64,000 bases of DNA, from positions 212,040-276,039 of the forward strand of contig DAOUJO010000007.1 of NCBI GenBank assembly GCA_034422595.1, written 5' to 3'. This DNA is from Dehalococcoidia bacterium. Its GTDB lineage: Bacteria; Chloroflexota; Dehalococcoidia; Lucifugimonadales; Australimonadaceae. Both the position numbers and the translations under genes were made by a program. Of this stretch, positions 3,264-31,790 are shown one piece after another (the stretch's first letter is position 1; the number at the start of each line of letters is the position of its first letter). The notes below the pieces were generated by a model. The model had not been told where the DNA came from. It saw only the letters and a program-made list of their open reading frames with translations, and did no database searches.

Positions 3264-4289
3264 CTAGGGCTCGCCGTACATGTTGCGGGCGTTCTCGCGG
3301 AGGATCAGCATCTGGTGCTCCTCCTTGATGTCCTCCCGCTCGAGGATCTCGTCGATCTCCTCCATGCAGTTCTCGATGGTAATCTCGTGCGGGAAGTCGG
3401 ACGCGAACATGAACGGGTCGGGCCCCACGCGCTCGATGGCGTAGGAGAGGGCCTTCTCGTTGCCCTCGCAGCCGATGAAGACCTGCCCACGGCGGAAGTA
3501 GTCCTCCGGGTGGTGCGGCAGCTCCAGTCCGCCGTATCCCATCTCGCGTTCGAGGCGGTCGATGAGGAGCGGGATCCACGCCGTGCCGCCCTCCATGAAG
3601 CCGAAGTGCAGGTTCGGGAAGCGGTCGAGCACGCCGTCAACGATCATGCCCGTCATGCCGCTGAGCAGCGGGATGGGCATGCCGAGCGCACGCGACGCCG
3701 GGAAGTTGGACATGCTGTCGAAGCCGAGGCGCTCGTAGTTGCCGCCGTGCACCGCGAGGACGCACCCGAGCTCCTCGGCGGCCTCGTAGAGCGGCCAGTA
3801 CTCCCGGGAGGCGATGTGCTTGATGAGGCCGTTGGACGGGATCATGCCGCCGACCATGCCGAGGTCGCGAACGCACCTGCGGAGCTCGGCAACGGCTTCG
3901 TCGACGACCTGCATCGGGAGCAGGGCGATGCCCCGCAGCCTCGGGCTCTCCTTCACGAACTTATCGTGGAGCCAGTTGTTGTACGCCCTGGCGTACGCGA
4001 TGGCCCACTCCTCGAAGACGATGCGCCCGTAGAAGAGGCCGCGCGTGGGGTAGAGGACGGCCCAGTCCGTGCCGGTGAGGTCCATGAACGACGTCCACTT
4101 CGCCGCGTCGGCGGGCTCGAACGCTCCCGGCGCCGGGTTGGCGCTCTGCACGCTCGGCGAGTGGAACTTGTCGCCGTCCGGCAGGATGTTGAGCGGCGTG
4201 CGCATCCTGTCGAAGGGCGCTTCGAGATACTGGAAGATCTCGACGGCGTTCTCGATCACGTGACCATCTGCGTCGACGTAGCCGGACAT
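3264..4289 (-). CDS. Amidohydrolase-2 (ACMSD/LigW-type metal-dependent hydrolase/decarboxylase) family protein
   Basis: 341 aa. N-terminal DADGHV metal motif and C-terminal FASDFPH motif. GGGAGG RBS upstream. Confidence 0.8.
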   Translation of the reverse strand: MSGYVDADGHVIENAVEIFQYLEAPFDRMRTPLNILPDGDKFHSPSVQSANPAPGAFEPADAAKWTSFMDLTGTDWAVLYPTRGLFYGRIVFEEWAIAYARAYNNWLHDKFVKESPRLRGIALLPMQVVDEAVAELRRCVRDLGMVGGMIPSNGLIKHIASREYWPLYEAAEELGCVLAVHGGNYERLGFDSMSNFPASRALGMPIPLLSGMTGMIVDGVLDRFPNLHFGFMEGGTAWIPLLIDRLEREMGYGGLELPHHPEDYFRRGQVFIGCEGNEKALSYAIERVGPDPFMFASDFPHEITIENCMEEIDEILEREDIKEEHQMLILRENARNMYGEP

Positions 4290-4354
4290 GGCGCACCTCC
4301 CCTGCTGTGCTGGCGCTGTACGACGGAATCCGTTCCGTCCTCAGTACATGACGG

Positions 4355-4360
4355 AGTATA
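4355..4360 (-). promoter_or_regulatory. Candidate -10 box (TATACT on the minus strand, context TATACTCC) upstream of the amidohydrolase at 4289
   Basis: The + strand reads GGAGTATA, 66 nt upstream of the start codon. Confidence 0.3.
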
Positions 4361-4394
4361 TGCGAACCTCAGGGCAGCTGCGCCACGAATGTGC

Positions 4395-4422
4395 GTGGTT
4401 CGACAGGCTCGCCATGAACGGG
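4395..4422. repeat. TCGACAGGCTC-type REP-like intergenic repeat, copy 1
   Basis: GTGGTTCGACAGGCTCGCCATGAACGG. Related copies are at 5943 and 10900. Confidence 0.6.
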
Positions 4423-4444
4423 TCCGAAGGCCGGGACCGATGCC

Positions 4445-5884
4445 CTACGGCAGGCCGAACTCGTCCCAGCGGGCTGCGACGCCCTCCATGATGTGACGGC
4501 TCACCTTGTTCACGGGCGGAAAGTCGTTGTCCTTGAACTTCATGGTTGCGTCGATGCCGACGCCGCGCCTCGGCGGGGTGAAGTCGACCTCGCCGCGCAG
4601 GCGCGGGGTTGGCTCGAACTCCCGGCCGAGAACGACGTGGTCGTCCGGCTCGGCGGCTGAGACGACGCGCCACATGACCTCTTCCCAGTCGCGAACGTTG
4701 CAGTCGTCGTCCACGACGATGATCCAGCGCCACCGCTCGACGTCCCATATCGCTTCCATGATCTCGCGCGGCTCCTCCTGGCGCTCAATATCGGCGGAGA
4801 CGATGAGCATGCCGTGGCGTCCGACCTCCGGGAAGTAGACCTCGCGGATGTTCGTCTTGCCCGTCCGGTCGATGAGGCGCGACTGCATCGAGCCTGAGCG
4901 CAGCAGCTGGCGGGGGTAGTCCTCGACGCGCTGGCAGATGAGGCCGTACGTCAGCGGGTCCTTCCGGTGGGTGATGGCCTTGACCTTGATGACGAACGCG
5001 GCCAGGTTCTGGCCGTAGAAGCCGGTGGATTCGCCGTGCGGCCCCTCCTCGGTGCGCTCGTTGGGCACGACCTCGCCCTCGATGACCACCTCCGAGTCCG
5101 CCGGCACGAGCAGGTCGCTGGTCTCGCACTTCACGAGTTTCGTTGCCTCGCCGCGCCAGCCGCCCGCGGCTTCGTACTCCATGGAGCCTTCCAGTTCGCC
5201 GCTGTTGGGCCGGACGGGGCTGCCCGCCGCGAGCGTGACGAGCGGGTCGGTGCCCATCACGATGGCGATGGGCGTGGGGCGTCCCTCCGCCTCGTTGCTC
5301 AGGATGTGGTCGCCGCCGCCGGGGCCGGTCGACGACTCCCTGCCGCGAACGCCGCCGGAGAGGCTGAGCGTCTGCTTGTCCTTGATCATGGCACGGTAGA
5401 GGCCGATGTTCAGGATGCCGGTGACCGGGTCGCGGGTCACGACGCCCGCGGTCGTGGCGAGGTACTGCCCGCCGTCGTGCTCGTGCCAGACGGGCGTGGG
5501 GATGAAGTCGAGGTCGACGTCGTCGCCGGTGACGATGACGTCCTTGCACGGCCCGGAGTCGACCTCGACGGACGGCAGGCGGTGGTCCATCCCGCCGACG
5601 ACACGCTCGTGGATCTTCGCCTCGTCCGGCTCGGTGCCGAATGCGAGCGCGACCTGCTCGATGGTGGAGAGCAGGTTCACGACCATCGGCTTGTCCGGGT
5701 AGCCCTTGACGTTGTCGAAGATGATGGCCGGGCCCTGCCGCTCCAGCGAGCGAGCGGCGACAGCACCGAGCTCGAGGTAGGGGTCGACCTCCGCCGTGAC
5801 GTGGCGCACGAGCCCCTTCTCGTCCAGCAGGCGTATGAAGTCCCGCATGTCGGTGTAGGCGACTCGTTGGCGTTCGAGGGTCAT
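4445..5884 (-). CDS. UbiD-family (prFMN-dependent) decarboxylase
   Basis: Start moved to the second ATG (5884), which has GGGAGG 7 nt upstream. The N-terminus MRDFIRLLDEKGLVRHVTAEVDP and the about 480 aa length are typical of UbiD. Confidence 0.85.
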   Translation of the reverse strand: MTLERQRVAYTDMRDFIRLLDEKGLVRHVTAEVDPYLELGAVAARSLERQGPAIIFDNVKGYPDKPMVVNLLSTIEQVALAFGTEPDEAKIHERVVGGMDHRLPSVEVDSGPCKDVIVTGDDVDLDFIPTPVWHEHDGGQYLATTAGVVTRDPVTGILNIGLYRAMIKDKQTLSLSGGVRGRESSTGPGGGDHILSNEAEGRPTPIAIVMGTDPLVTLAAGSPVRPNSGELEGSMEYEAAGGWRGEATKLVKCETSDLLVPADSEVVIEGEVVPNERTEEGPHGESTGFYGQNLAAFVIKVKAITHRKDPLTYGLICQRVEDYPRQLLRSGSMQSRLIDRTGKTNIREVYFPEVGRHGMLIVSADIERQEEPREIMEAIWDVERWRWIIVVDDDCNVRDWEEVMWRVVSAAEPDDHVVLGREFEPTPRLRGEVDFTPPRRGVGIDATMKFKDNDFPPVNKVSRHIMEGVAARWDEFGLP

Positions 5885-6057: not shown

Positions 6058-7587
6058 ATGCTCGAGGCCACCACAAGCGCGCTACAGCAGCTGTTCAGCC
6101 TTGGACCGCTGCTGGCGTTCTTCCTCGTCATCCCCTACGCGCTGCTCGGCGGGCTGATGCCGGGCACGAACCTCCCGCTCACCGTCATCCTGCTCGGCTT
6201 CGCTCACCGCATCGACCCGCTGGTGGCGCTGGTGCTGGTCACCGCGAAGGACGCCGCCGGCGACATCACGGAGCCGGTGCCATCGATCCTGATGGGCATT
6301 CCGGGAGCGCGCGCGGCGCAGGCCACGATCCTCGACGGCTACCCGCTCGCGCAGCAGGGCAAGGCTGCGTACGCCCTCGGGGCGAGCTACACGACGACGC
6401 TGGTCGGCGGGCTGGTCGGAGCGGCAGTGCTCTACGCGTTCCTGCCCGTCGGGCGCGAAGTGCTCAAGCTGCTCGGCTCGGCGGAGTTCTTCCTGCTGTC
6501 ACTCGCGGGAATCGCGGCGGTTGCGGTGGTGAGCAGCGGAGCGCTGGTGAAGGGACTGCTGACTGCGGCGTTCGGCATCACCATCGCGTGCATGGGCAAC
6601 TCGTTCACGGGCGAGAACGTCCGCACCGACTTCGGCATCGACTACCTGTGGGACGGCGTGCCGCTCATCCCGTCGGTTGTCGGGCTGTTCGCCGTGCCGG
6701 AGGTCGTGGGCCTCGTGGTGAGCAACAAGGCGATCGCCCGCGAACACGCCGAGGACGTGCTGCACGGCAAAGCGTCGCAGCAGCAGGCGCTGGAAGGCAT
6801 GCGCGAGGCGTTCCGCCACAAGCTGCTCATGGCACGCTCCTCGATCATCGGCGTGATCGTCGGCGTCATACCGGGCGTCGGCGCCAGCGCGGCGCACTGG
6901 ATCTCCTACGCGCAGGCTCGCCAGACGGAGAAGGGCGCGACCCAGACGTTCGGAACGGGCGACATCCGGGGAGTCATCGCGGCGGACGCGCCCAACAACT
7001 CCATCGACGGTGCCGAGCTCATCCCGACGCTTGCGTTCGGCATCCCGGGCTCCGGCGGCAAGGCCATCTTCCTGGCCCTGCTCATCCTGCTGGGGTTCGT
7101 ACCTGGCCCGTCGATGCTGAACGAGCATCTGGACATCACCATCGCGCTGGTGTTCACGATCGCGCTTGCCAATGTTGTGGTCGTGCCGATCATGTTCCTG
7201 TTCGCCGGGACCATCGCCAAGTTCACGGCGCTGCGGCCCACGCTCATCGCTCCGTTCGTGGCGGGCGTGGTGCTGCTGTCGGCGTTCCAGTCGTCCGCCA
7301 GCATGGCCGACCTCGGCATCGTGGCGGCGTTCACCGCGCTTGGCCTGTTCATGAAGGCGTACGGCTGGCCGAGGACCCCCATCCTGATCGCGCTCGTGCT
7401 GATCCCGACGGTGGAGAAGAATCTCTGGACGGCTTCGCAGGCCTACGGCTGGGAGATGCTCCAGCGGCCGCAGTTCCTGCTCATTCTGATCATCGGGGTC
7501 GGGCTCGTTGTCTGGACGGCCAGGACCCAGCGCAGCGCAGAGGTCGCGGCGCAGTCGCAGGGTTTCAAGGAAGCGACGACGGACTAG
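6058..7587 (+). CDS. tctA: Tripartite tricarboxylate transporter large permease (TctA family)
   Basis: About 509 aa polytopic membrane protein. Internal ATG 6058 has an AAGGGG RBS. It is followed by small membrane and Bug/TctC-like genes. Confidence 0.8.
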   Translation: MLEATTSALQQLFSLGPLLAFFLVIPYALLGGLMPGTNLPLTVILLGFAHRIDPLVALVLVTAKDAAGDITEPVPSILMGIPGARAAQATILDGYPLAQQGKAAYALGASYTTTLVGGLVGAAVLYAFLPVGREVLKLLGSAEFFLLSLAGIAAVAVVSSGALVKGLLTAAFGITIACMGNSFTGENVRTDFGIDYLWDGVPLIPSVVGLFAVPEVVGLVVSNKAIAREHAEDVLHGKASQQQALEGMREAFRHKLLMARSSIIGVIVGVIPGVGASAAHWISYAQARQTEKGATQTFGTGDIRGVIAADAPNNSIDGAELIPTLAFGIPGSGGKAIFLALLILLGFVPGPSMLNEHLDITIALVFTIALANVVVVPIMFLFAGTIAKFTALRPTLIAPFVAGVVLLSAFQSSASMADLGIVAAFTALGLFMKAYGWPRTPILIALVLIPTVEKNLWTASQAYGWEMLQRPQFLLILIIGVGLVVWTARTQRSAEVAAQSQGFKEATTD

Positions 7588-11632: not shown

Positions 11633-13114
11633 ATGCCAGTGCAGGACCTGCGAGAGTGGATCGGGCGCATCGAGGAGATGGGCGAGCTGACCCGCATCGA
11701 GGGCGCCGACCCGAACCTCGAGATCGGCGGGCTCACCGACCTCTACCAGTGGGACATGGAGAACCCCGCCCTGCTCTTCGAGAAGATCAAGGGCCACCCG
11801 GAGAGCTACCGGCTCATCTCGAACGTCCTCACGTCGCTGCCGCGCATCTGCCTGAGCCTCGACCTCCCGACGCACCTCACGCGGCAGGAGTTCGTCCGGA
11901 CGTGGCGCGACCGGCTCAAGGAGTTCTCGCCCATCGCGCCGAGGCAGGTCGAGGACGGGCCCGTGCTCGACAACCGGCAGGTCGACGCCGACGTGGACGT
12001 GACGCAGTTCCCCGCGCCGTTCTGGCACGCCGAGGACGGCGGCAACTTCCTCGGCACCGGCAACATCGTCATCATGCGCGACCCGGAGACCGGCTGGGTG
12101 AACGCGGGCACATACCGGGTGCAGGTGCATGACAGCAAGACGCTCGGCATCATGATCTCGCCCGGGAAGCACGGACGCCTCATCCGCGAGAAGTACTGGG
12201 CGAAGGGCGAGGCGTGCCCGGTCGCGGTGTCGTTCGGGCAGGACCCGCTGCTGCTGCTGCTCGGCGGGCTGGAGGTCGACTACGGCGAGGACGAGTTCGC
12301 GGTCGCGGGCGGCATCCGCAACGAGGCGCTGGACGTCGTCGCCGCGCCGCTGACCGGCCTGCCCGTCCCCGCGACGTCGGAGATCGTCATCGAGGGCGAG
12401 ATACCGCCGGACCAGTTCCACCAGGAGGGTCCGTTCGGCGAGTGGACGGGCTACTACGCGAGCGGCGAGCGCGACATGCCCATCATCAACGTGAAGTCCA
12501 TCAACTGGCGGAACGACCCCATCGTGATGGGCTGCCTGCCGGGCAAGCCGCCGAACGACAACACGTACTTCCGCAGCCCGCTGCGCGCGGCGATGCTCTG
12601 GAACGAGCTGGAGCGCGCGGGCGTGCCGGGAGTCGTCGGCGCGTGGTCGCACGAGGCCGGCGGCGGGCGCTTCCTGAACGTCATCTCCATCAAGCAGATG
12701 TACCCCGGCCATGCGAAGCAGGTGGGGCACGCGACGACCGCCGTGCACGCGGGCGCTTACGCCAACCGGTTCGTCATCGTGGTCGATGACGACATCGACC
12801 CCACCGACACGAACGAGGTGCTGTGGGCGCTCTGCACGCGCACCGAGGTGACGGACGACATCGACGTCGTGAAGCGGATGTGGAGCACGTCGCTCGACCC
12901 GATGGCGTACGCCGGCGACGAGGGCCCGCGCTACTACAACAACCGCATGATCATCGATGCCTGCCGCCCCTTCGAGCGCCTCGCGACGTTCCCGCCGGTC
13001 GCCCGCGCGACGCAGGAGCACGCCGCCGAGCTCCGCTCCAACTGGCCGCAGCTCTTCACTGCCGACGGCAAGGTCCGCAAGGACGTGCGCCAGGTGAGGA
13101 GGAACGGGGGATAG
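11633..13114 (+). CDS. UbiD-family (prFMN-dependent) decarboxylase, second paralogue
   Basis: 493 aa. N-terminus DLREWIGRIEEMGELTRIEGADP is UbiD-like. AAGGAGGA RBS and a TACAAT -10 box upstream. Confidence 0.85.
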   Translation: MPVQDLREWIGRIEEMGELTRIEGADPNLEIGGLTDLYQWDMENPALLFEKIKGHPESYRLISNVLTSLPRICLSLDLPTHLTRQEFVRTWRDRLKEFSPIAPRQVEDGPVLDNRQVDADVDVTQFPAPFWHAEDGGNFLGTGNIVIMRDPETGWVNAGTYRVQVHDSKTLGIMISPGKHGRLIREKYWAKGEACPVAVSFGQDPLLLLLGGLEVDYGEDEFAVAGGIRNEALDVVAAPLTGLPVPATSEIVIEGEIPPDQFHQEGPFGEWTGYYASGERDMPIINVKSINWRNDPIVMGCLPGKPPNDNTYFRSPLRAAMLWNELERAGVPGVVGAWSHEAGGGRFLNVISIKQMYPGHAKQVGHATTAVHAGAYANRFVIVVDDDIDPTDTNEVLWALCTRTEVTDDIDVVKRMWSTSLDPMAYAGDEGPRYYNNRMIIDACRPFERLATFPPVARATQEHAAELRSNWPQLFTADGKVRKDVRQVRRNGG

Positions 13115-13116
13115 AG

Positions 13117-13431
13117 GTGCCGCCTCTTAAGCCAGACCACATAAGCCCAACGCCGGAAGAATCGGCCGCCATTGAAGCCGCCATTGCCGGTGACCCAGAC
13201 ACCTGGGAAGCAACCGGTCCGCTGGTTCCCATCGCAAAAGCCGACCCTGAACTCCTCGCGATGTACCACGAGGGCAAGCTGACCATCGCGCCCTACCTCC
13301 GCAAGGAGCACCCCAAGACCCGCGTGACGATCCGCCTCGACGCTGATGTCGTGGCCCGGCTCCGCGTAGACGGCCCCGGCTGGCAGACCCGCGCGAACGC
13401 CGCACTCCGCGAGGCCGTGCTAGGGAAGTAG
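13117..13431 (+). CDS. BrnA/DUF4415-family antitoxin-like protein (no BrnT partner seen)
   Basis: GTG 13117 lies 2 nt after the UbiD stop. The C-terminus TRVTIRLDADVVARLRVDGPGWQTRANAALREAVL matches the DUF4415/BrnA pattern (vTiRLD..v...f...G.GyQTriN..Lr). Confidence 0.65.
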   Translation: MPPLKPDHISPTPEESAAIEAAIAGDPDTWEATGPLVPIAKADPELLAMYHEGKLTIAPYLRKEHPKTRVTIRLDADVVARLRVDGPGWQTRANAALREAVLGK

Positions 13432-13457
13432 GGATCTTACTTTTGGAAGGAACTTAC

Positions 13458-14912
13458 GTGGGAATACGAATACAACCGAGAGAGCTCCAAGTATCTGACG
13501 ATAGCCCATTCGAAAAGGACCTCCTCAGTCGCAACGATGCCATCGAGGTTCTCAGTCACATAATTCAAAACATCGAAGGGCCTTGCGTCATTGCGTTAGA
13601 TGCGCCCTGGGGAACGGGGAAGTCCACTTTCTTAGAGATGTGGAAGAAGTACCTAGGGAATCGCGGTTTTCCTGTGGTTAAGTTCAATGCTTGGGAAACA
13701 GATTTCGCTGAGGATCCCTTTATTGCCCTTACTGCAGAATTGACTGATGGTATACAAGAACATATGCCTCGCAGGAAAAAGGTGATAGTTAATCGACTGA
13801 GGGCACAGGCTGAGAGAATTCTACTGACCACGAGTTCGAATGTTATCAAGAATGTGACGCAAGGAATAGTTGACCCTGCGGCAATCATAGCAAAAAGCGA
13901 GACTAACTCCGAGTCGAAGTCGAGGATCGCAAATTATCGCGACCTGAAGGCCTATTTCTCTGAGTTCAGACAATCCTTACAGGATGCCGCGAATGCTCTC
14001 CGGCCAACCAGGGACACTCCTCCGTTAGTTGTTATAGTCGATGAACTTGACAGATGCCGGCCTTCTTACGCTGTTGAATTGCTAGAGGTAGCCAAACACC
14101 TGTTCTCAGTAGATGAGATAATCTTCGTGCTCGCTATCAACCGGTCAGAGTTGTCCCACTCCGTAAGGGTTGTATACGGGAGCCGTTTTGACGCCGAATC
14201 CTACTTGCGCAGATTCTTCGATATAGATTTCCTTCTCCCTGACCCTGACCGACAAGATTTTATCACGGCGATGATTGATGAAGTCGGCATTAGTTCCTAT
14301 TTTGAACGTACCGCAGACCGTAGAGCATCCTTCGAACGAGACTCCATACAAGACTATCTTGTGAAGTATTTCAATACATCCGACCTCAGTTTGCGGAGTA
14401 TCGCGCAGTCTATTCATCACTTCGGTTTGGTTTACGCTTCACTTGCAAGCGATCAGCGCTCATTCATTACAATGGCTACAGTTGCCTTGATTCTGCGGAC
14501 GATGAATATTGACCTCTATCGCCGTTTCGTTGAGCACCGAGCATCTGACAAGGACGTAGTCGACTATCTAATTGAAAACAGGAAACCAAATCGTTTCGTT
14601 GTCGATAGATCGGATGCACAGTTTGAGGCATTGCTCATAGCTGCTGGCCAAGAAGATAACAATTGGGCGTTCAAGGAATTTGACGCATCTCCCTTGCTCA
14701 TCCATTACAAGGCATTGATAGCTGCGTCTCCATCTCAGGACGATTCCCGTGACCCAGTTGTGGGTTATGCTAGGGCAGTAGTCGAGCTAGCAACTAGGTT
14801 CTTAACCTCCCATAGGCATGAACCAACCTTCGGGTTTCGCCATGCAACACAACGCATTGAACTTATATCGCGTGGTCTTTTGGACCAACAAAATGACGAC
14901 AACTCTTGCTAG
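13458..14912 (+). CDS. KAP-family P-loop NTPase (soluble variant, no TM insert)
   Basis: Walker A DAPWGTGKSTFL, KAP-typical FNAWETDF, and Walker B VVIVDELDRCRP. GTG 13458 has GGAAGG 7 nt upstream; the ORF-track TTG 13443 is an alternative start. Strongly low GC. Confidence 0.85.
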   Translation: MGIRIQPRELQVSDDSPFEKDLLSRNDAIEVLSHIIQNIEGPCVIALDAPWGTGKSTFLEMWKKYLGNRGFPVVKFNAWETDFAEDPFIALTAELTDGIQEHMPRRKKVIVNRLRAQAERILLTTSSNVIKNVTQGIVDPAAIIAKSETNSESKSRIANYRDLKAYFSEFRQSLQDAANALRPTRDTPPLVVIVDELDRCRPSYAVELLEVAKHLFSVDEIIFVLAINRSELSHSVRVVYGSRFDAESYLRRFFDIDFLLPDPDRQDFITAMIDEVGISSYFERTADRRASFERDSIQDYLVKYFNTSDLSLRSIAQSIHHFGLVYASLASDQRSFITMATVALILRTMNIDLYRRFVEHRASDKDVVDYLIENRKPNRFVVDRSDAQFEALLIAAGQEDNNWAFKEFDASPLLIHYKALIAASPSQDDSRDPVVGYARAVVELATRFLTSHRHEPTFGFRHATQRIELISRGLLDQQNDDNSC

Positions 14913-14944: not shown

Positions 14945-14975
14945 CTGGATTCCCGCCTTCGCGGGAATGACGAGG
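14945..14975. repeat. IPAFAGMT-type hairpin repeat between convergent genes (possible bidirectional terminator)
   Basis: CTGGATTCCCGCCTTCGCGGGAATGACGAGG. Stem ATTCCCGC/GCGGGAAT spans 14949..14968. Confidence 0.6.
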
Positions 14976-14987
14976 TTGAGGAGCCCC

Positions 14988-15731
14988 CTAGATGTCCGCC
15001 GACCGCGGCCTGAGTGACTCCGGGTTGGCGTCGACCCACTTCCAGTAGTGCTCCCACGCCTCGGAGACTTCACCGGCGGAGCGGCGGGCGAGGCCGGGCC
15101 GGAGGACGAGCTCGGGCATCGCCTCGGGCGTGCCGATCAATTGGGCGTGCCACGTCATCTCGGCCAGGTGCTCGGTCGCGATGGCGTCGATCGTGGCGGT
15201 CTCGACGTTCGGGCCGGTAAAGACCATGCCATGGTTCTGCAGGTGGCAGGCGTTCGCACCCTGCATCCGCTCGGAGACCGCCCTGCCCTGCTCGACGCTG
15301 CGTATCAGCGCCTTGTCCTCGTCGTACATGACAGGCTCGTGCGCGACGGCGGTCGCGAGCTCGGGGTCGAGGAGCGGGAGGATGGTCGCGCCCGCGAGGC
15401 CCATCATCGTCGCCCACTTCTGGTGGGTGTGGATGATGGAGCCGACGTCCGGGTGCGTGCGGTAGATCTCGGCGTGTATCGGCCACTCGCTGACCTTCGT
15501 GATCTGGCGGTCGCCGGCGCCGACGATGTTGCCGTCGAGGTCCATGACGATGAGGTCCTCGGCGCGGACGCGGTGCATCTGGATGTGGGGCCACGGCTTG
15601 ATGAAGAAGGTGTCGGTGTCCGGGATGCGCGCGCTGGTGTGGCCGCGCGTGGTGCCGAGTCCGGTGAGGTAGAGGAGGCGGTGGGAGACGGCCACCGTCT
15701 CGCGCAGGGCTGCGAGTGCGTCGTCGGTCAT
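14988..15731 (-). CDS. Class II aldolase/adducin-domain protein
   Basis: Internal ATG 15731 (MTDDALAALRETVAVSHRLLY...) is chosen. The upstream 63 codons of the ORF are Arg-rich shadow overlapping the next gene. HTHQKW metal-site motif. Confidence 0.8.
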   Translation of the reverse strand: MTDDALAALRETVAVSHRLLYLTGLGTTRGHTSARIPDTDTFFIKPWPHIQMHRVRAEDLIVMDLDGNIVGAGDRQITKVSEWPIHAEIYRTHPDVGSIIHTHQKWATMMGLAGATILPLLDPELATAVAHEPVMYDEDKALIRSVEQGRAVSERMQGANACHLQNHGMVFTGPNVETATIDAIATEHLAEMTWHAQLIGTPEAMPELVLRPGLARRSAGEVSEAWEHYWKWVDANPESLRPRSADI

Positions 15732-30619: not shown

Positions 30620-31790
30620 AGTGGTAACGCCGTCGACAGCGCAGTGCTGACATCATATGCCGGAAGCCAAAGTCAACTCGTGTCAGGTGATTCGCGGCGT
30701 GCCACCAATGCAACTCGACACTCACACTGGGGAGCGACCGAATGACCAATGAGATTACAACATGCCGGATCTGGGGTGATGATTTCACAGCCGTCGGAGA
30801 AAACATCCCCGAGCTCGACAGGATTACAGTAACTGAGTCCCCTCGCGCAGGTGGAGGATACACAGTCTCTAGTGGCATCGTTCGACACCTCGACAATCTT
30901 GATGACGGAGGGAAGGCTCAGCTCACTTCTTGGTTAGTAGATCAGCGAGAGCAGGGAAATAACTGTCCCATTGTGACGGAGGAAGCAATTGAATACGCGA
31001 CCCGCAAGCATAGGCTTCCAGTTTATGAGCGTGCTGAAAGATTGCTTAAGTTCCTTTCCAAACAAACTATAGTAGCAGGAGAAGGCATTTCATTAATCAA
31101 ACACTCCAGGGGCTGGGAGGAGTTCCCTCAGAATTCAAACGGTCAGCCAATCTTTCCGGATGTGCCGACAAACCCGTTTGTGCTAGGTGCGATGGCTTGG
31201 TCAGAGTCCATTACAGATAATGAAGTTTCATATTTGGTCGACTACCTAGAGGATGAGGGTTGGGTACGGGAGACTTTCAAGCGAAGTGGTGTATTCTCTC
31301 GTTCGCATCGATATTTGGTCACTGTTGGCGGGCATGTCCGAATCTCTGAAGAGGCAGCCAATGTAGATTCTTCTCAAGTCTTTGTGGCAATGTGGTTCGA
31401 TGACTCCCTTTCGCAGGTATACGATGAAGGAATCGCACCTGCGATCTATGACTGCGGATTTGAGCCAAAGAGAATCGACCGCGATTCTACGGTCGACAAG
31501 ATTGATGATGCCATAATTGCAGAGATTAGGCGGTCACGCTTTCTTGTCGCTGACTTCACACATGGCGACGATGGAGCAAGAGGGGGAGTGTACTACGAAG
31601 CTGGTTTTGCACATGGTCGCGGCATTCCCGTTATCTTTACCTGCCGTGGCGACATGATTGAAAAGATCCATTTCGATACACGCCAATACGCTCATATCAC
31701 CTGGAACAGTACGTCTGAACTACGCGAAAGCCTACGCGATAGAATATTGGCGCGGATCGGAGAAGGTCCGACCATAGCGCAGTAGTGGGC
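30620..31790. other. Compositional (low-GC) island 2
   Basis: The 60-nt lines I counted are 38-52% G+C, against about 72% in a counted flanking line. Contains one ORF only. Confidence 0.75.
30742..31785 (+). CDS. Hypothetical protein: unassigned N-terminal region + winged-helix-like segment + C-terminal nucleoside 2-deoxyribosyltransferase/TIR-like domain
   Basis: 347 aa with GGGGAG RBS 8 nt upstream. The C-terminus VFVAMWFDD...RFLVADFTHGDDGARGGVYYEAGFAHGRGIPVIF fits the NDT/deoxyribohydrolase/TIR-like Rossmannoid pattern. SYLVDYLEDEGWVRE...YLVTVGGHVRISE is wHTH-like. Confidence 0.6.
   Translation: MTNEITTCRIWGDDFTAVGENIPELDRITVTESPRAGGGYTVSSGIVRHLDNLDDGGKAQLTSWLVDQREQGNNCPIVTEEAIEYATRKHRLPVYERAERLLKFLSKQTIVAGEGISLIKHSRGWEEFPQNSNGQPIFPDVPTNPFVLGAMAWSESITDNEVSYLVDYLEDEGWVRETFKRSGVFSRSHRYLVTVGGHVRISEEAANVDSSQVFVAMWFDDSLSQVYDEGIAPAIYDCGFEPKRIDRDSTVDKIDDAIIAEIRRSRFLVADFTHGDDGARGGVYYEAGFAHGRGIPVIFTCRGDMIEKIHFDTRQYAHITWNSTSELRESLRDRILARIGEGPTIAQ

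What the first reader, a model, noticed from the sequence alone, without database searches (positions are those of the whole stretch)
13117..14912. Low-GC soluble KAP-family NTPase placed directly behind an orphan BrnA/DUF4415 antitoxin-like gene: a possible two-gene conflict module
A second abrupt compositional island begins within a few nt of the BrnA-like stop codon at 13431. Counted lines are about 43-47% G+C. It contains one gene with unmistakable KAP P-loop signatures: GTGKST, FNAWETDF and VVIVDELDRCRP.

Classical KAP NTPases carry transmembrane helices inserted in the NTPase domain. Here the about 140 aa between Walker A and Walker B contain no hydrophobic stretch, so this is a soluble variant. 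KAP NTPases recur in defence islands but are mostly uncharacterised.

The gene immediately upstream (13117..13431) is on the same strand, with a 26-nt gap to the preferred GTG. It has the DUF4415/BrnA antitoxin C-terminus (TRVTIRLD…GWQTRANAALREAVL). It has host-like GC and no BrnT/DUF497 toxin partner; the upstream neighbour is a UbiD gene ending 2 nt earlier.

One possibility is that a BrnT toxin was replaced by the KAP NTPase, giving an antitoxin-like regulator plus an NTPase effector. The other is that the island simply inserted next to an orphan antitoxin.
Basis: partly seen in the sequence, partly recalled or inferred. Interest (0 to 1): 0.7.

Follow-up and report, generated by a model that had tools for sequence, protein, structure and literature searches.

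The report
Defence-gene slot beside a decayed toxin–antitoxin
The low-GC gene is a stand-alone candidate anti-phage ATPase sitting in a slot where related bacteria carry other defence genes, and the antitoxin gene next to it is a leftover of an ordinary toxin–antitoxin pair, not its partner.

Summary
ORF 13117-13431 is a BrnA antitoxin (Pfam 3e-17). ORF 13458-14912 is a KAP P-loop NTPase with no membrane helices, at 47% G+C against 66-70% in its neighbours. No brnT lies anywhere in the window.

The proposed BrnA+KAP module is not supported:
- In syntenic relatives, mostly from sponge metagenomes, brnT lies upstream of brnA. It is intact in L086, L087, L092 and L096, so KAP did not take its place. 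The window lost brnT by a deletion that leaves 2 nt between UbiD and brnA.
- The KAP protein matches PADLOC PDC-S20 full-length (5e-117), an untested single-gene defence candidate.
- Only 1 of 160 other KAP loci has a BrnA nearby, and it is not adjacent.
- A solo relative (50% identity) sits between yajQ and a PNPOx gene.
- Between brnA and the convergent aldolase, relatives carry KAP alleles of 42-56% identity, a SIR2 gene (PDC-S65) or an AbiP2 reverse transcriptase.
- BrnA and KAP divergence do not co-vary.

This is a defence-cassette hotspot next to a decaying brnTA locus. It is a new member of a known kind and of modest interest. Why every cargo abuts the brnA stop codon is unexplained.

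The parts
11633..13114 (+). UbiD-family decarboxylase gene. It is the conserved left flank of the variable locus.
   Evidence: Pfam UbiD, UbiD_N and UbiD_C. It is 89-99% identical in syntenic relatives.
13115..13116 (.). Deletion scar. Only 2 nt lie where relatives have 200-800 nt of spacer plus the 261-nt brnT gene.
   Evidence: Compared with L086, L087, L092 and L096. No BrnT is found in the window.
13117..13431 (+). brnA, an orphan BrnA (DUF4415) ribbon-helix-helix antitoxin gene with an intact ORF. It is a relic of a brnT-brnA pair.
   Evidence: Pfam PF14384, E 3.3e-17. Full-length homologues are 60-84% identical. Intact brnT lies upstream in L086, L087, L088, L092 and L096. dN/dS is about 0.2.
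13432..13457 (+). 26-nt spacer holding a ribosome-binding site, GGAAGGAA, at 13445-13452. There is no room for a promoter.
   Evidence: Sequence. Spacers are similar in six KAP alleles at this locus, and a like 5' leader is present in the solo KAP of L173. No promoter-like site is found here.
13458..14912 (+). Soluble KAP-family P-loop NTPase (484 aa), a member of the PADLOC candidate single-gene defence family PDC-S20. It is the low-GC cargo.
   Evidence: Pfam PF07693, E 3.6e-41. PADLOC PDLC04959, E 5e-117, full length. G+C 47.4%. dN/dS 0.13 against the 89%-identical orthologue in L002. AF2 model with pLDDT 76; best PDB fold match is RdrA.
13611..13628 (+). Walker A motif, GTGKST (aa 52-57).
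   Evidence: Translation. G52, G54 and K55 are invariant in 37 homologues.
14025..14063 (+). Walker B and KAP signature, LVVIVDELDRCRP (aa 190-202).
   Evidence: Translation. D195-P202 are invariant in 37 homologues.
14950..14971 (.). REP-like palindrome TTCCCGCCTTCGCGGGAATGAC between the KAP stop and the aldolase stop. It is absent from the orthologous site in L002.
   Evidence: One match in the window, none in 100 shuffles. The window/L002 alignment shows it is extra here. The same element follows KAP in L083, and a diverged copy follows KAP in L171.
14988..15731 (-). Class II aldolase gene, convergent with KAP. It is the conserved right flank of the variable locus.
   Evidence: Pfam Aldolase_II, E 7.6e-37. 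Orthologues of 247-248 aa flank the cargo in L002, L083, L085, L086, L087, L091 and L092.

Best explanation
The segment 13432-14987 is the cargo of a small defence-gene hotspot. The hotspot lies between two convergent conserved genes, brnA and a class II aldolase.

The cargo is one gene. It encodes a soluble KAP-family P-loop NTPase of the candidate single-gene anti-phage family PDC-S20, with a short leader and ribosome-binding site and no promoter of its own. It is probably transcribed by read-through from UbiD and brnA (inferred).

By analogy with tested KAP NTPases, it probably blocks phage replication on its own. Activity would depend on the Walker motifs and on the less conserved helical C-terminal part, perhaps as a ring-forming ATPase (inferred).

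brnA is the surviving antitoxin half of an ordinary brnT-brnA toxin-antitoxin pair. The toxin gene, which lies upstream in relatives, was deleted in this lineage. BrnA is a neighbour of KAP, not its specific partner.

Among related genomes the slot is refilled with other KAP alleles, a SIR2 gene or an AbiP2 reverse transcriptase. The likeliest route is homologous recombination in the conserved flanks (inferred).
For: **KAP identity**
- Pfam KAP_NTPase E 3.6e-41.
- PADLOC PDC-S20 E 5e-117 over 10-477 of 489 aa.
- PDC families are candidates found by embedding in RM type I, BREX and DISARM systems. Eight of 80 homologue loci have a type I R-M specificity-subunit (HsdS) gene within about 4 kb of KAP, and several also hold HsdM or HsdR.
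- More than 340 relatives lie on IMG/VR viral contigs.
- Other KAP NTPases were shown to defend as single genes, and defence needs Walker B (PMC13552941).
- KAP is under purifying selection, dN/dS 0.13.

**Hotspot**
- The UbiD...aldolase synteny is shared. The cargo is KAP in the window, L002, L083, L092, L096 and L171. L097 also has KAP after brnA, but its flanks are not on the contig.
- The cargo is SIR2/PDC-S65 (3.8e-193) in L085 and AbiP2 (3.6e-197) in L091. L086 and L087 hold small or RAYT-like ORFs.
- The KAP and SIR2 cargo and the L086 insert are at 47-53% G+C, against 66-70% for the flanking genes.
- KAP alleles are 42-56% identical where UbiD is 89-99% identical.

**brnA as a relic**
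- brnT is intact upstream in L086, L087, L088, L092 and L096. It is truncated or fused in L084, L085, L089 and L097. It is absent in the window, L083, L091 and L171.

**No specific pairing**
- One of 80 genome loci and 0 of 80 viral loci of KAP homologues have a BrnA.
- A solo KAP exists in L173.
- BrnA and KAP identities are uncorrelated, rho -0.31.
- About 39 of 43 other BrnA loci are not followed by a defence-family gene; most are followed by housekeeping genes or ORFs with no family match.
Against: - No experiment shows that PDC-S20 defends against phage. The family is an untested candidate.
- All six KAP alleles at this locus keep a 25-31 nt spacing after brnA. Every identified defence cargo (KAP, SIR2, AbiP2) is co-oriented with brnA and starts within -19 to +75 nt of its stop. 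Some functional coupling, such as co-transcription or regulation by BrnA, is therefore not excluded.
- BrnA stays intact and under purifying selection after brnT loss. It may have a role that I have not identified.
- Co-transcription rests only on the absence of sigma-70-like promoters and intrinsic terminators in a simple scan. That scan may not suit this organism.
- The recombination route is inferred. No recombinase or att site was found.
Confidence: 0.72

Rival explanations
1. brnA (with or without brnT) and the downstream gene form a functional operon. BrnA, a DNA-binding ribbon-helix-helix protein, controls transcription of whichever promoterless defence cassette sits behind it. The brnTA locus would then be an expression and regulation platform, not just a neighbour.
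For: - The KAP, SIR2 and AbiP2 cargo (KAP in at least five alleles) are co-oriented with brnA and start -19 to +75 nt from its stop.
- The spacers leave no room for a promoter, and none is predicted.
- brnT-brnA-KAP triads exist in L092 and L096.
- BrnA is kept intact after brnT loss, with dN/dS about 0.2, and 0.05 for the window against L002 over 54 codons.
Against: - In the window the whole brnTA promoter region is deleted. brnA starts 2 nt after UbiD, so any BrnA operator is probably gone.
- The solo KAP in L173 has the same kind of leader behind yajQ.
- BrnA loci elsewhere are mostly followed by housekeeping genes or ORFs with no family match.
- KAP homologues elsewhere lack BrnA.
Confidence: 0.15
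2. BrnA is the antitoxin-like neutraliser of a toxic KAP NTPase that took over the role of BrnT, giving a toxin-antitoxin-like abortive-infection pair.
For: - The two genes are adjacent on the same strand with a 26-nt gap.
- brnT is absent from the window.
- brnA-KAP adjacency recurs in seven contigs.
Against: - brnT and KAP lie on opposite sides of brnA and co-exist in L092 and L096.
- Nearly identical BrnA alleles precede different cargo: L085 (SIR2) and L097 (KAP) are 92% identical, and L083 (KAP) and L091 (AbiP2) are 97% identical.
- There is no co-variation.
- All seven adjacencies are at one syntenic locus, or have unknown flanks (L097).
- 159 of 160 other KAP loci lack BrnA.
- A solo KAP exists in the closest subclade.
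Confidence: 0.05
3. The KAP gene is not a defence gene. It is a horizontally acquired NTPase with a housekeeping or mobile-element function that happens to lie in a permissive intergenic site.
For: - PDC-S20 is untested.
- No effector domain is recognisable. Pfam covers only residues 31-332, and no PDB sequence match exists.
- The fold matches are generic AAA+ proteins apart from RdrA.
Against: - The alternative occupants of the same slot are SIR2/PDC-S65 and AbiP2, both defence families.
- Homologues lie next to type I R-M subunit genes, restriction enzymes, PIN toxins and integrases.
- Other KAP NTPases were shown to defend.
Confidence: 0.08

Closest known systems
PADLOC PDC-S20 (phage defence candidate, single gene)
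   Same: Full-length HMM match: E 5e-117, residues 10-477 against profile positions 3-461 of 464. It is one gene with low G+C. Homologues lie next to type I R-M subunit genes, which fits how PDC families were found.
   Different: Nothing structural. The family itself has no published functional test in the texts I could read.
Experimentally tested KAP P-loop NTPase defence proteins (EF_KAP and three gut-metagenome KAPs, PMC13552941), and Tmn
   Same: KAP NTPase domain followed by a region of unknown function. They act as single genes, and Walker B and the C-terminal region are needed for defence.
   Different: EF_KAP and Tmn have transmembrane helices, one of them inside the NTPase domain. This protein has none. 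The C-terminal region here is shorter, about 150 aa, and all-helical. Sequence relatedness to EF_KAP was not tested.
PifA (F plasmid, T7 exclusion) and QatA (Qat system ATPase)
   Same: They share the KAP NTPase domain: PADLOC PifA 1.9e-21 and QatA 2.5e-17.
   Different: The matches are partial only. NCBIfam QatA scores 62 bits against a cutoff of 600. The neighbours are UbiD, brnA and an aldolase, not QatBCD genes.
BrnTA type II toxin-antitoxin system
   Same: brnA matches PF14384. Orthologous loci have brnT upstream with a 14-nt overlap, which is the usual order.
   Different: The toxin gene is deleted here, so the window holds no functional pair.
Defence hotspots between conserved core genes (as described for E. 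coli, Pseudomonas and Vibrio pangenomes and for P2/P4 elements; from my own knowledge, not checked here)
   Same: Conserved flanks and mutually exclusive defence cargo among close relatives (KAP, SIR2, AbiP2). The cargo has atypical G+C and highly divergent alleles.
   Different: The slot is very small and holds one gene. It is bounded by two convergent stop codons. No integrase is present, and a decaying toxin-antitoxin gene forms the left edge. The hosts are bacteria from sponge metagenomes.
RdrA, the ATPase of the RADAR defence system
   Same: Best structural match of the AF2 model: Foldseek E 1.8e-5 to heptameric RdrA rings.
   Different: The TM-score is only 0.41 and identity about 13%. 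No RdrB adenosine deaminase gene is adjacent.

Membership tests
KAP family P-loop NTPase (Pfam PF07693) | Profile match above the curated cutoff, with Walker A and the DELDR-type Walker B | tested here: met
   141.8 bits against a cutoff of 20. GTGKST and VDELDRCRP are present and invariant in 37 homologues.
KAP family P-loop NTPase (classical, membrane-anchored form) | Transmembrane helices inserted in the NTPase domain | tested here: not met
   The maximum 19-residue Kyte-Doolittle hydropathy is 1.49 overall and 0.77 between Walker A and B. The AF2 model shows amphipathic helices only.
PADLOC PDC-S20 | Full-length match to the family HMM, encoded as a single gene | tested here: met
   PDLC04959, E 5e-117, coverage 10-477 of 489. 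There are no conserved partner genes across 80 loci.
PADLOC PDC-S20 | Demonstrated anti-phage activity | not testable with these tools
   PDC systems are described as untested candidates. No paper mentions PDC-S20.
BrnA antitoxin (PF14384 / DUF4415) | Profile match above the cutoff | tested here: met
   63.1 bits against a cutoff of 26.1, residues 58-101.
BrnTA type II toxin-antitoxin system | Adjacent cognate BrnT (PF04365) toxin gene | tested here: not met
   No BrnT in the window; best tblastn E 0.045. UbiD ends 2 nt before brnA. brnT is present in the orthologous loci L086, L087, L092 and L096.
Hypothetical BrnA-KAP two-gene module | Co-occurrence of the two genes across unrelated loci and taxa | tested here: not met
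   One of 80 genome loci (2 kb away, opposite strand) and 0 of 80 viral loci have a BrnA. All adjacent pairs sit at one syntenic locus or on short contigs.
Hypothetical BrnA-KAP two-gene module | Co-divergence of the partners, and exclusivity of the partner | tested here: not met
   Spearman rho is -0.31 over 10 pairs. BrnA alleles 92-97% identical precede KAP, SIR2 or AbiP2.
Defence hotspot / defence island | Conserved flanking genes with alternative defence cargo in related genomes | tested here: met
   UbiD and aldolase flanks are 89-99% identical. The cargo is PDC-S20, PDC-S65 or AbiP2.
Qat system (QatA) | Equivalog-level match and QatBCD neighbours | tested here: not met
   NCBIfam QatA scores 62 bits against a cutoff of 600. 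The neighbours are UbiD, brnA and an aldolase.
RADAR (RdrA) | RdrA-type ATPase next to an RdrB adenosine deaminase | tested here: not met
   Only weak fold similarity, TM 0.41. No deaminase gene is adjacent.

The most novel reading that the evidence does not exclude
The 3' end of brnA in this clade of bacteria from sponge metagenomes may be a dedicated docking and expression slot. Promoterless one-gene defence cassettes (KAP, SIR2, AbiP2) would be exchanged exactly at the brnA stop codon and transcribed, and perhaps regulated, through the brnTA unit. That would be a minimal, integron-like arrangement without an integrase. It would also explain why brnA is kept after brnT is lost.
Probability: 0.12. 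Interest if true: 0.6.

Novelty: new member of a known kind. Interest (0 to 1): 0.33.

Why it matters
- It adds positional evidence that the untested PDC-S20 family of soluble KAP NTPases is a defence gene. It shares one genomic slot with SIR2 and AbiP2 genes.
- It gives a compact natural set of alleles (42-100% identity) for testing specificity.
- It is a caution for genome scans: a toxin-antitoxin remnant next to a defence gene is not evidence of a new two-gene system.
- The tight, co-oriented placement of every defence cargo at the brnA stop codon is a small open question about how such slots are refilled and expressed.

Tried and rejected
- **Flanking repeats or att-like sites around the KAP gene.** Only chance-level short repeats were found.
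- **Sigma-70-like promoters and intrinsic terminators.** None lies between UbiD and the KAP start. The hits inside KAP are in its AT-richer sequence.
- **PDB sequence search with the KAP profile.** No match.
- **Literature search for PDC-S20.** No paper.
- **Matching contig lengths in the two hit lists to find further pairs.** This found one true BrnA-KAP pair (P0111/P0177, L171). The other match (P0097/P0181, L172) was a coincidence: that KAP sits beside a restriction enzyme.
- **Microhomology at the brnT deletion junction.** None convincing.
- **Link between brnT loss and the presence of cargo.** Rejected. brnT is intact with KAP in L092 and L096, and is truncated at cargo-free paralogous loci L084 and L089.
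- **Conserved brnA-KAP spacer as proof of an old pair.** Weakened, because the solo KAP in L173 carries a similar leader.
- **Taxonomy of the window's organism.** Not determined.
Full report
**1. The observation**

- UbiD (11633-13114) ends 2 nt before a 104-codon GTG-initiated ORF at 13117-13431. That ORF matches Pfam BrnA_antitoxin (E 3.3e-17) through its C-terminal ribbon-helix-helix part.
- After a 26-nt spacer with a GGAAGGAA ribosome-binding site comes a 484-codon ORF at 13458-14912. It matches Pfam KAP_NTPase (E 3.6e-41) and carries GTGKST, FNAWETDF and VVIVDELDRCRP.
- The GTG start is confirmed by the identical database protein P0001 and by the conserved MGIRIQP N-terminus of homologues.
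- G+C falls from 66-70% in UbiD, brnA and the aldolase to 47.4% in KAP, starting right after the brnA stop.
- No 19-residue window has membrane-helix hydropathy, so the protein is predicted soluble.
- No BrnT-like sequence exists in the 64 kb window.

**2. What the KAP gene is**

- It matches the PADLOC model PDC-S20 over its full length (E 5e-117). It matches PifA and QatA only weakly and partially.
- PDC families are candidate systems proposed because they are embedded in type I R-M, BREX or DISARM loci, and they are described as untested.
- In line with that, 8 of 80 homologue loci from reference genomes have a type I R-M specificity-subunit (HsdS) gene within about 4 kb of KAP, several also hold HsdM or HsdR, and others lie beside PIN toxins, integrases or resolvases.
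- One homologue sits beside a type II restriction enzyme.
- More than 340 relatives are on IMG/VR viral contigs.
- Other KAP NTPases, which have membrane helices, were recently shown to protect as single genes, and they need Walker B and the C-terminal region (PMC13552941).
- The gene is under purifying selection: dN/dS is 0.13 against an 89%-identical orthologue.
- An AF2 model (pLDDT 76) shows a P-loop core and an all-helical C-terminal third. Its best PDB fold matches are the ring-forming RADAR ATPase RdrA (E 1.8e-5, TM 0.41) and generic AAA+ proteins.
- No PDB sequence relative exists.

**3. What the brnA gene is**

Close BrnA homologues (60-84% identity over the full length) are numerous, with several paralogues per genome. 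In the loci I could read, the usual arrangement is brnT followed by brnA with a 14-nt overlap.

| brnT state | Loci |
|---|---|
| Intact | L086, L087, L088, L092, L096 |
| 5'-truncated | L084, L089 |
| First 34 codons fused in frame to brnA | L085, L097 |
| Absent | window, L083, L091, L171 |

The window's brnA is therefore the surviving half of an ordinary brnTA pair. The toxin gene lay on the UbiD side. It was removed by a deletion that leaves 2 nt between the UbiD stop and the brnA start. BrnA alleles show dN/dS of about 0.2.

**4. The locus is a hotspot**

The order Rieske oxygenase, (GNAT), UbiD, [brnT] brnA, cargo, aldolase (-), aldolase (-), FAD monooxygenase is shared by the window and several metagenomic contigs. 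Three of these (L091, L092, L096) carry accessions of marine sponge metagenomes.

| Cargo between brnA and the aldolase | Loci |
|---|---|
| KAP/PDC-S20 | window; L002 (89% identical); L083 (42-46%, split into two ORFs); L092 (44%); L096 (53%); L171 (47%, with IS21 beyond) |
| KAP after brnA, flanks not on the contig | L097 (56%) |
| SIR2 gene, PDC-S65 (E 3.8e-193) | L085 |
| AbiP2 reverse transcriptase (E 3.6e-197) | L091 |
| Small or RAYT-like ORFs | L086, L087 |

- The KAP and SIR2 cargo and the L086 insert have 47-53% G+C.
- The flanks are far less diverged than the cargo. UbiD dS is 0.11-0.13 and identity 97-99% for four relatives, while KAP alleles are 42-56% identical. brnA is intermediate, with dS 0.45-0.64.
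- The cargo fills the whole space between the two convergent stop codons. It starts -19 to +75 nt from the brnA stop and ends 4-109 nt from the aldolase stop or a duplicated fragment of the aldolase 3' end.

**5. Test of the proposed BrnA-KAP module**

- With a BrnA profile that detects relatives down to about 38% identity, only 1 of 80 genome loci of KAP homologues has a BrnA. It lies 2 kb away on the other strand and has its own brnT. None of the 80 viral loci has one.
- In a neighbour-joining tree of 197 KAP proteins, the brnA-linked ones fall in a clade of 15. That clade also holds P0003-P0009.
- The one member of that group I could inspect (P0005, 50% identity to the window's KAP) is a solo low-GC gene between yajQ and a PNPOx gene. 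It has a similar RBS-bearing leader.
- BrnA and KAP identities are uncorrelated (rho -0.31, 10 pairs).
- BrnA alleles 92-97% identical precede KAP, SIR2 or AbiP2.
- Of 43 other BrnA loci with a co-directional downstream ORF, about four are followed by defence-like genes. Most of the rest are followed by housekeeping genes or ORFs with no family match.
- brnT, brnA and KAP co-exist in L092 and L096, so KAP did not replace BrnT.

**6. Mechanism**

Shown:
- The identity and integrity of the KAP NTPase.
- Its membership of a defence-candidate family.
- Its position in a slot used by other defence genes.
- The relic status of brnA.

Inferred:
- KAP acts alone as an NTP-dependent anti-phage protein.
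- It is transcribed by read-through from UbiD and brnA. There is no room for a promoter, and no promoter or terminator is predicted.
- Cargo is exchanged by homologous recombination in the conserved brnA and aldolase ends.

Not excluded: BrnA or the brnTA promoter contributes to cargo expression in relatives that still have it.

**7. Unexplained**

- Every identified defence cargo abuts the brnA stop and points the same way.
- brnA is kept after at least four different kinds of brnT loss.
- REP-like palindromes (14950-14971 here) and RAYT-like genes recur in the slot.

**8. Verdict**

The BrnA-KAP module is not supported. The simpler reading, a cassette next to an orphan antitoxin, is right and can be sharpened to a defence-cassette hotspot beside a decaying brnTA locus. 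This is a new member of known kinds (PDC-S20, a defence hotspot and a toxin-antitoxin relic), of modest interest.

Noticed in passing
window 30742-31785 (+): A second low-GC island (about 48% against 67%) holds a 347-aa ORF between a Rieske-type oxygenase gene and a cupin-like gene. Its C-terminus matches a PADLOC TIR-type 'Effector' model (2.1e-9). It matches Pfam Nuc_deoxyrib_tr only weakly (0.0034, below the cutoff). It may be another one-gene defence cassette.
   Followed up: partly
window 14950-14971; L083 about 5830-5850; L084 about 4395: The palindrome TTCCCGCCTTCGCGGGAATGAC follows the KAP stop in the window and in L083, and a diverged copy follows it in L171. Its beginning is seen just downstream of brnA in L084. 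It is missing at the orthologous site of L002. RAYT-like (IS200-type Y1 transposase, weak Pfam hits) genes lie in the same slot in L083 and L087, and a similar ORF without a Pfam hit lies there in L091.
   Followed up: partly
L083 about 5860-5880; L091 about 6955-7005: Fragments of the aldolase 3' end (CTAGATATCCGCCGACC...) are duplicated directly after the cargo gene. The RAYT-like segment and the real aldolase gene lie further on. This suggests recombination or insertion within the aldolase end.
   Followed up: no
L083 4341-5770: The KAP gene at the orthologous site is split into two overlapping ORFs (4254-4928 and 4889-5770). It is either a frameshift pseudogene or an assembly error in a long-read contig.
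   Followed up: no
L085 4001-4411; L097 223-615: The first 34 codons of brnT are fused in frame to brnA from codon 9, giving a 136-aa protein. The same fusion allele (92% identical) precedes SIR2 in one contig and KAP in the other.
   Followed up: partly
L003, L007, L040, L065, L074, L080, L021: KAP/PDC-S20 homologues in Binatia, Dehalococcoidia and other MAGs lie inside or beside type I restriction-modification operons (HsdM, HsdS, HsdR), sometimes with a PIN toxin gene.
   Followed up: partly
L173 2356-2404: A run of 13 G lies immediately upstream of the solo KAP cassette, between yajQ and KAP.
   Followed up: no
same 1.63 Mb contig as the window, outside it: A second BrnA paralogue (P0243, in the cluster of P0137) is encoded elsewhere on the contig that carries the window's KAP. 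BrnA is therefore multi-copy in this genome, which could explain why an orphan copy is retained.
   Followed up: no
L091 3137-4590: The UbiD gene of this relative matches as two tblastn pieces (residues 1-237 and 246-493). This indicates a frameshift or assembly error.
   Followed up: no
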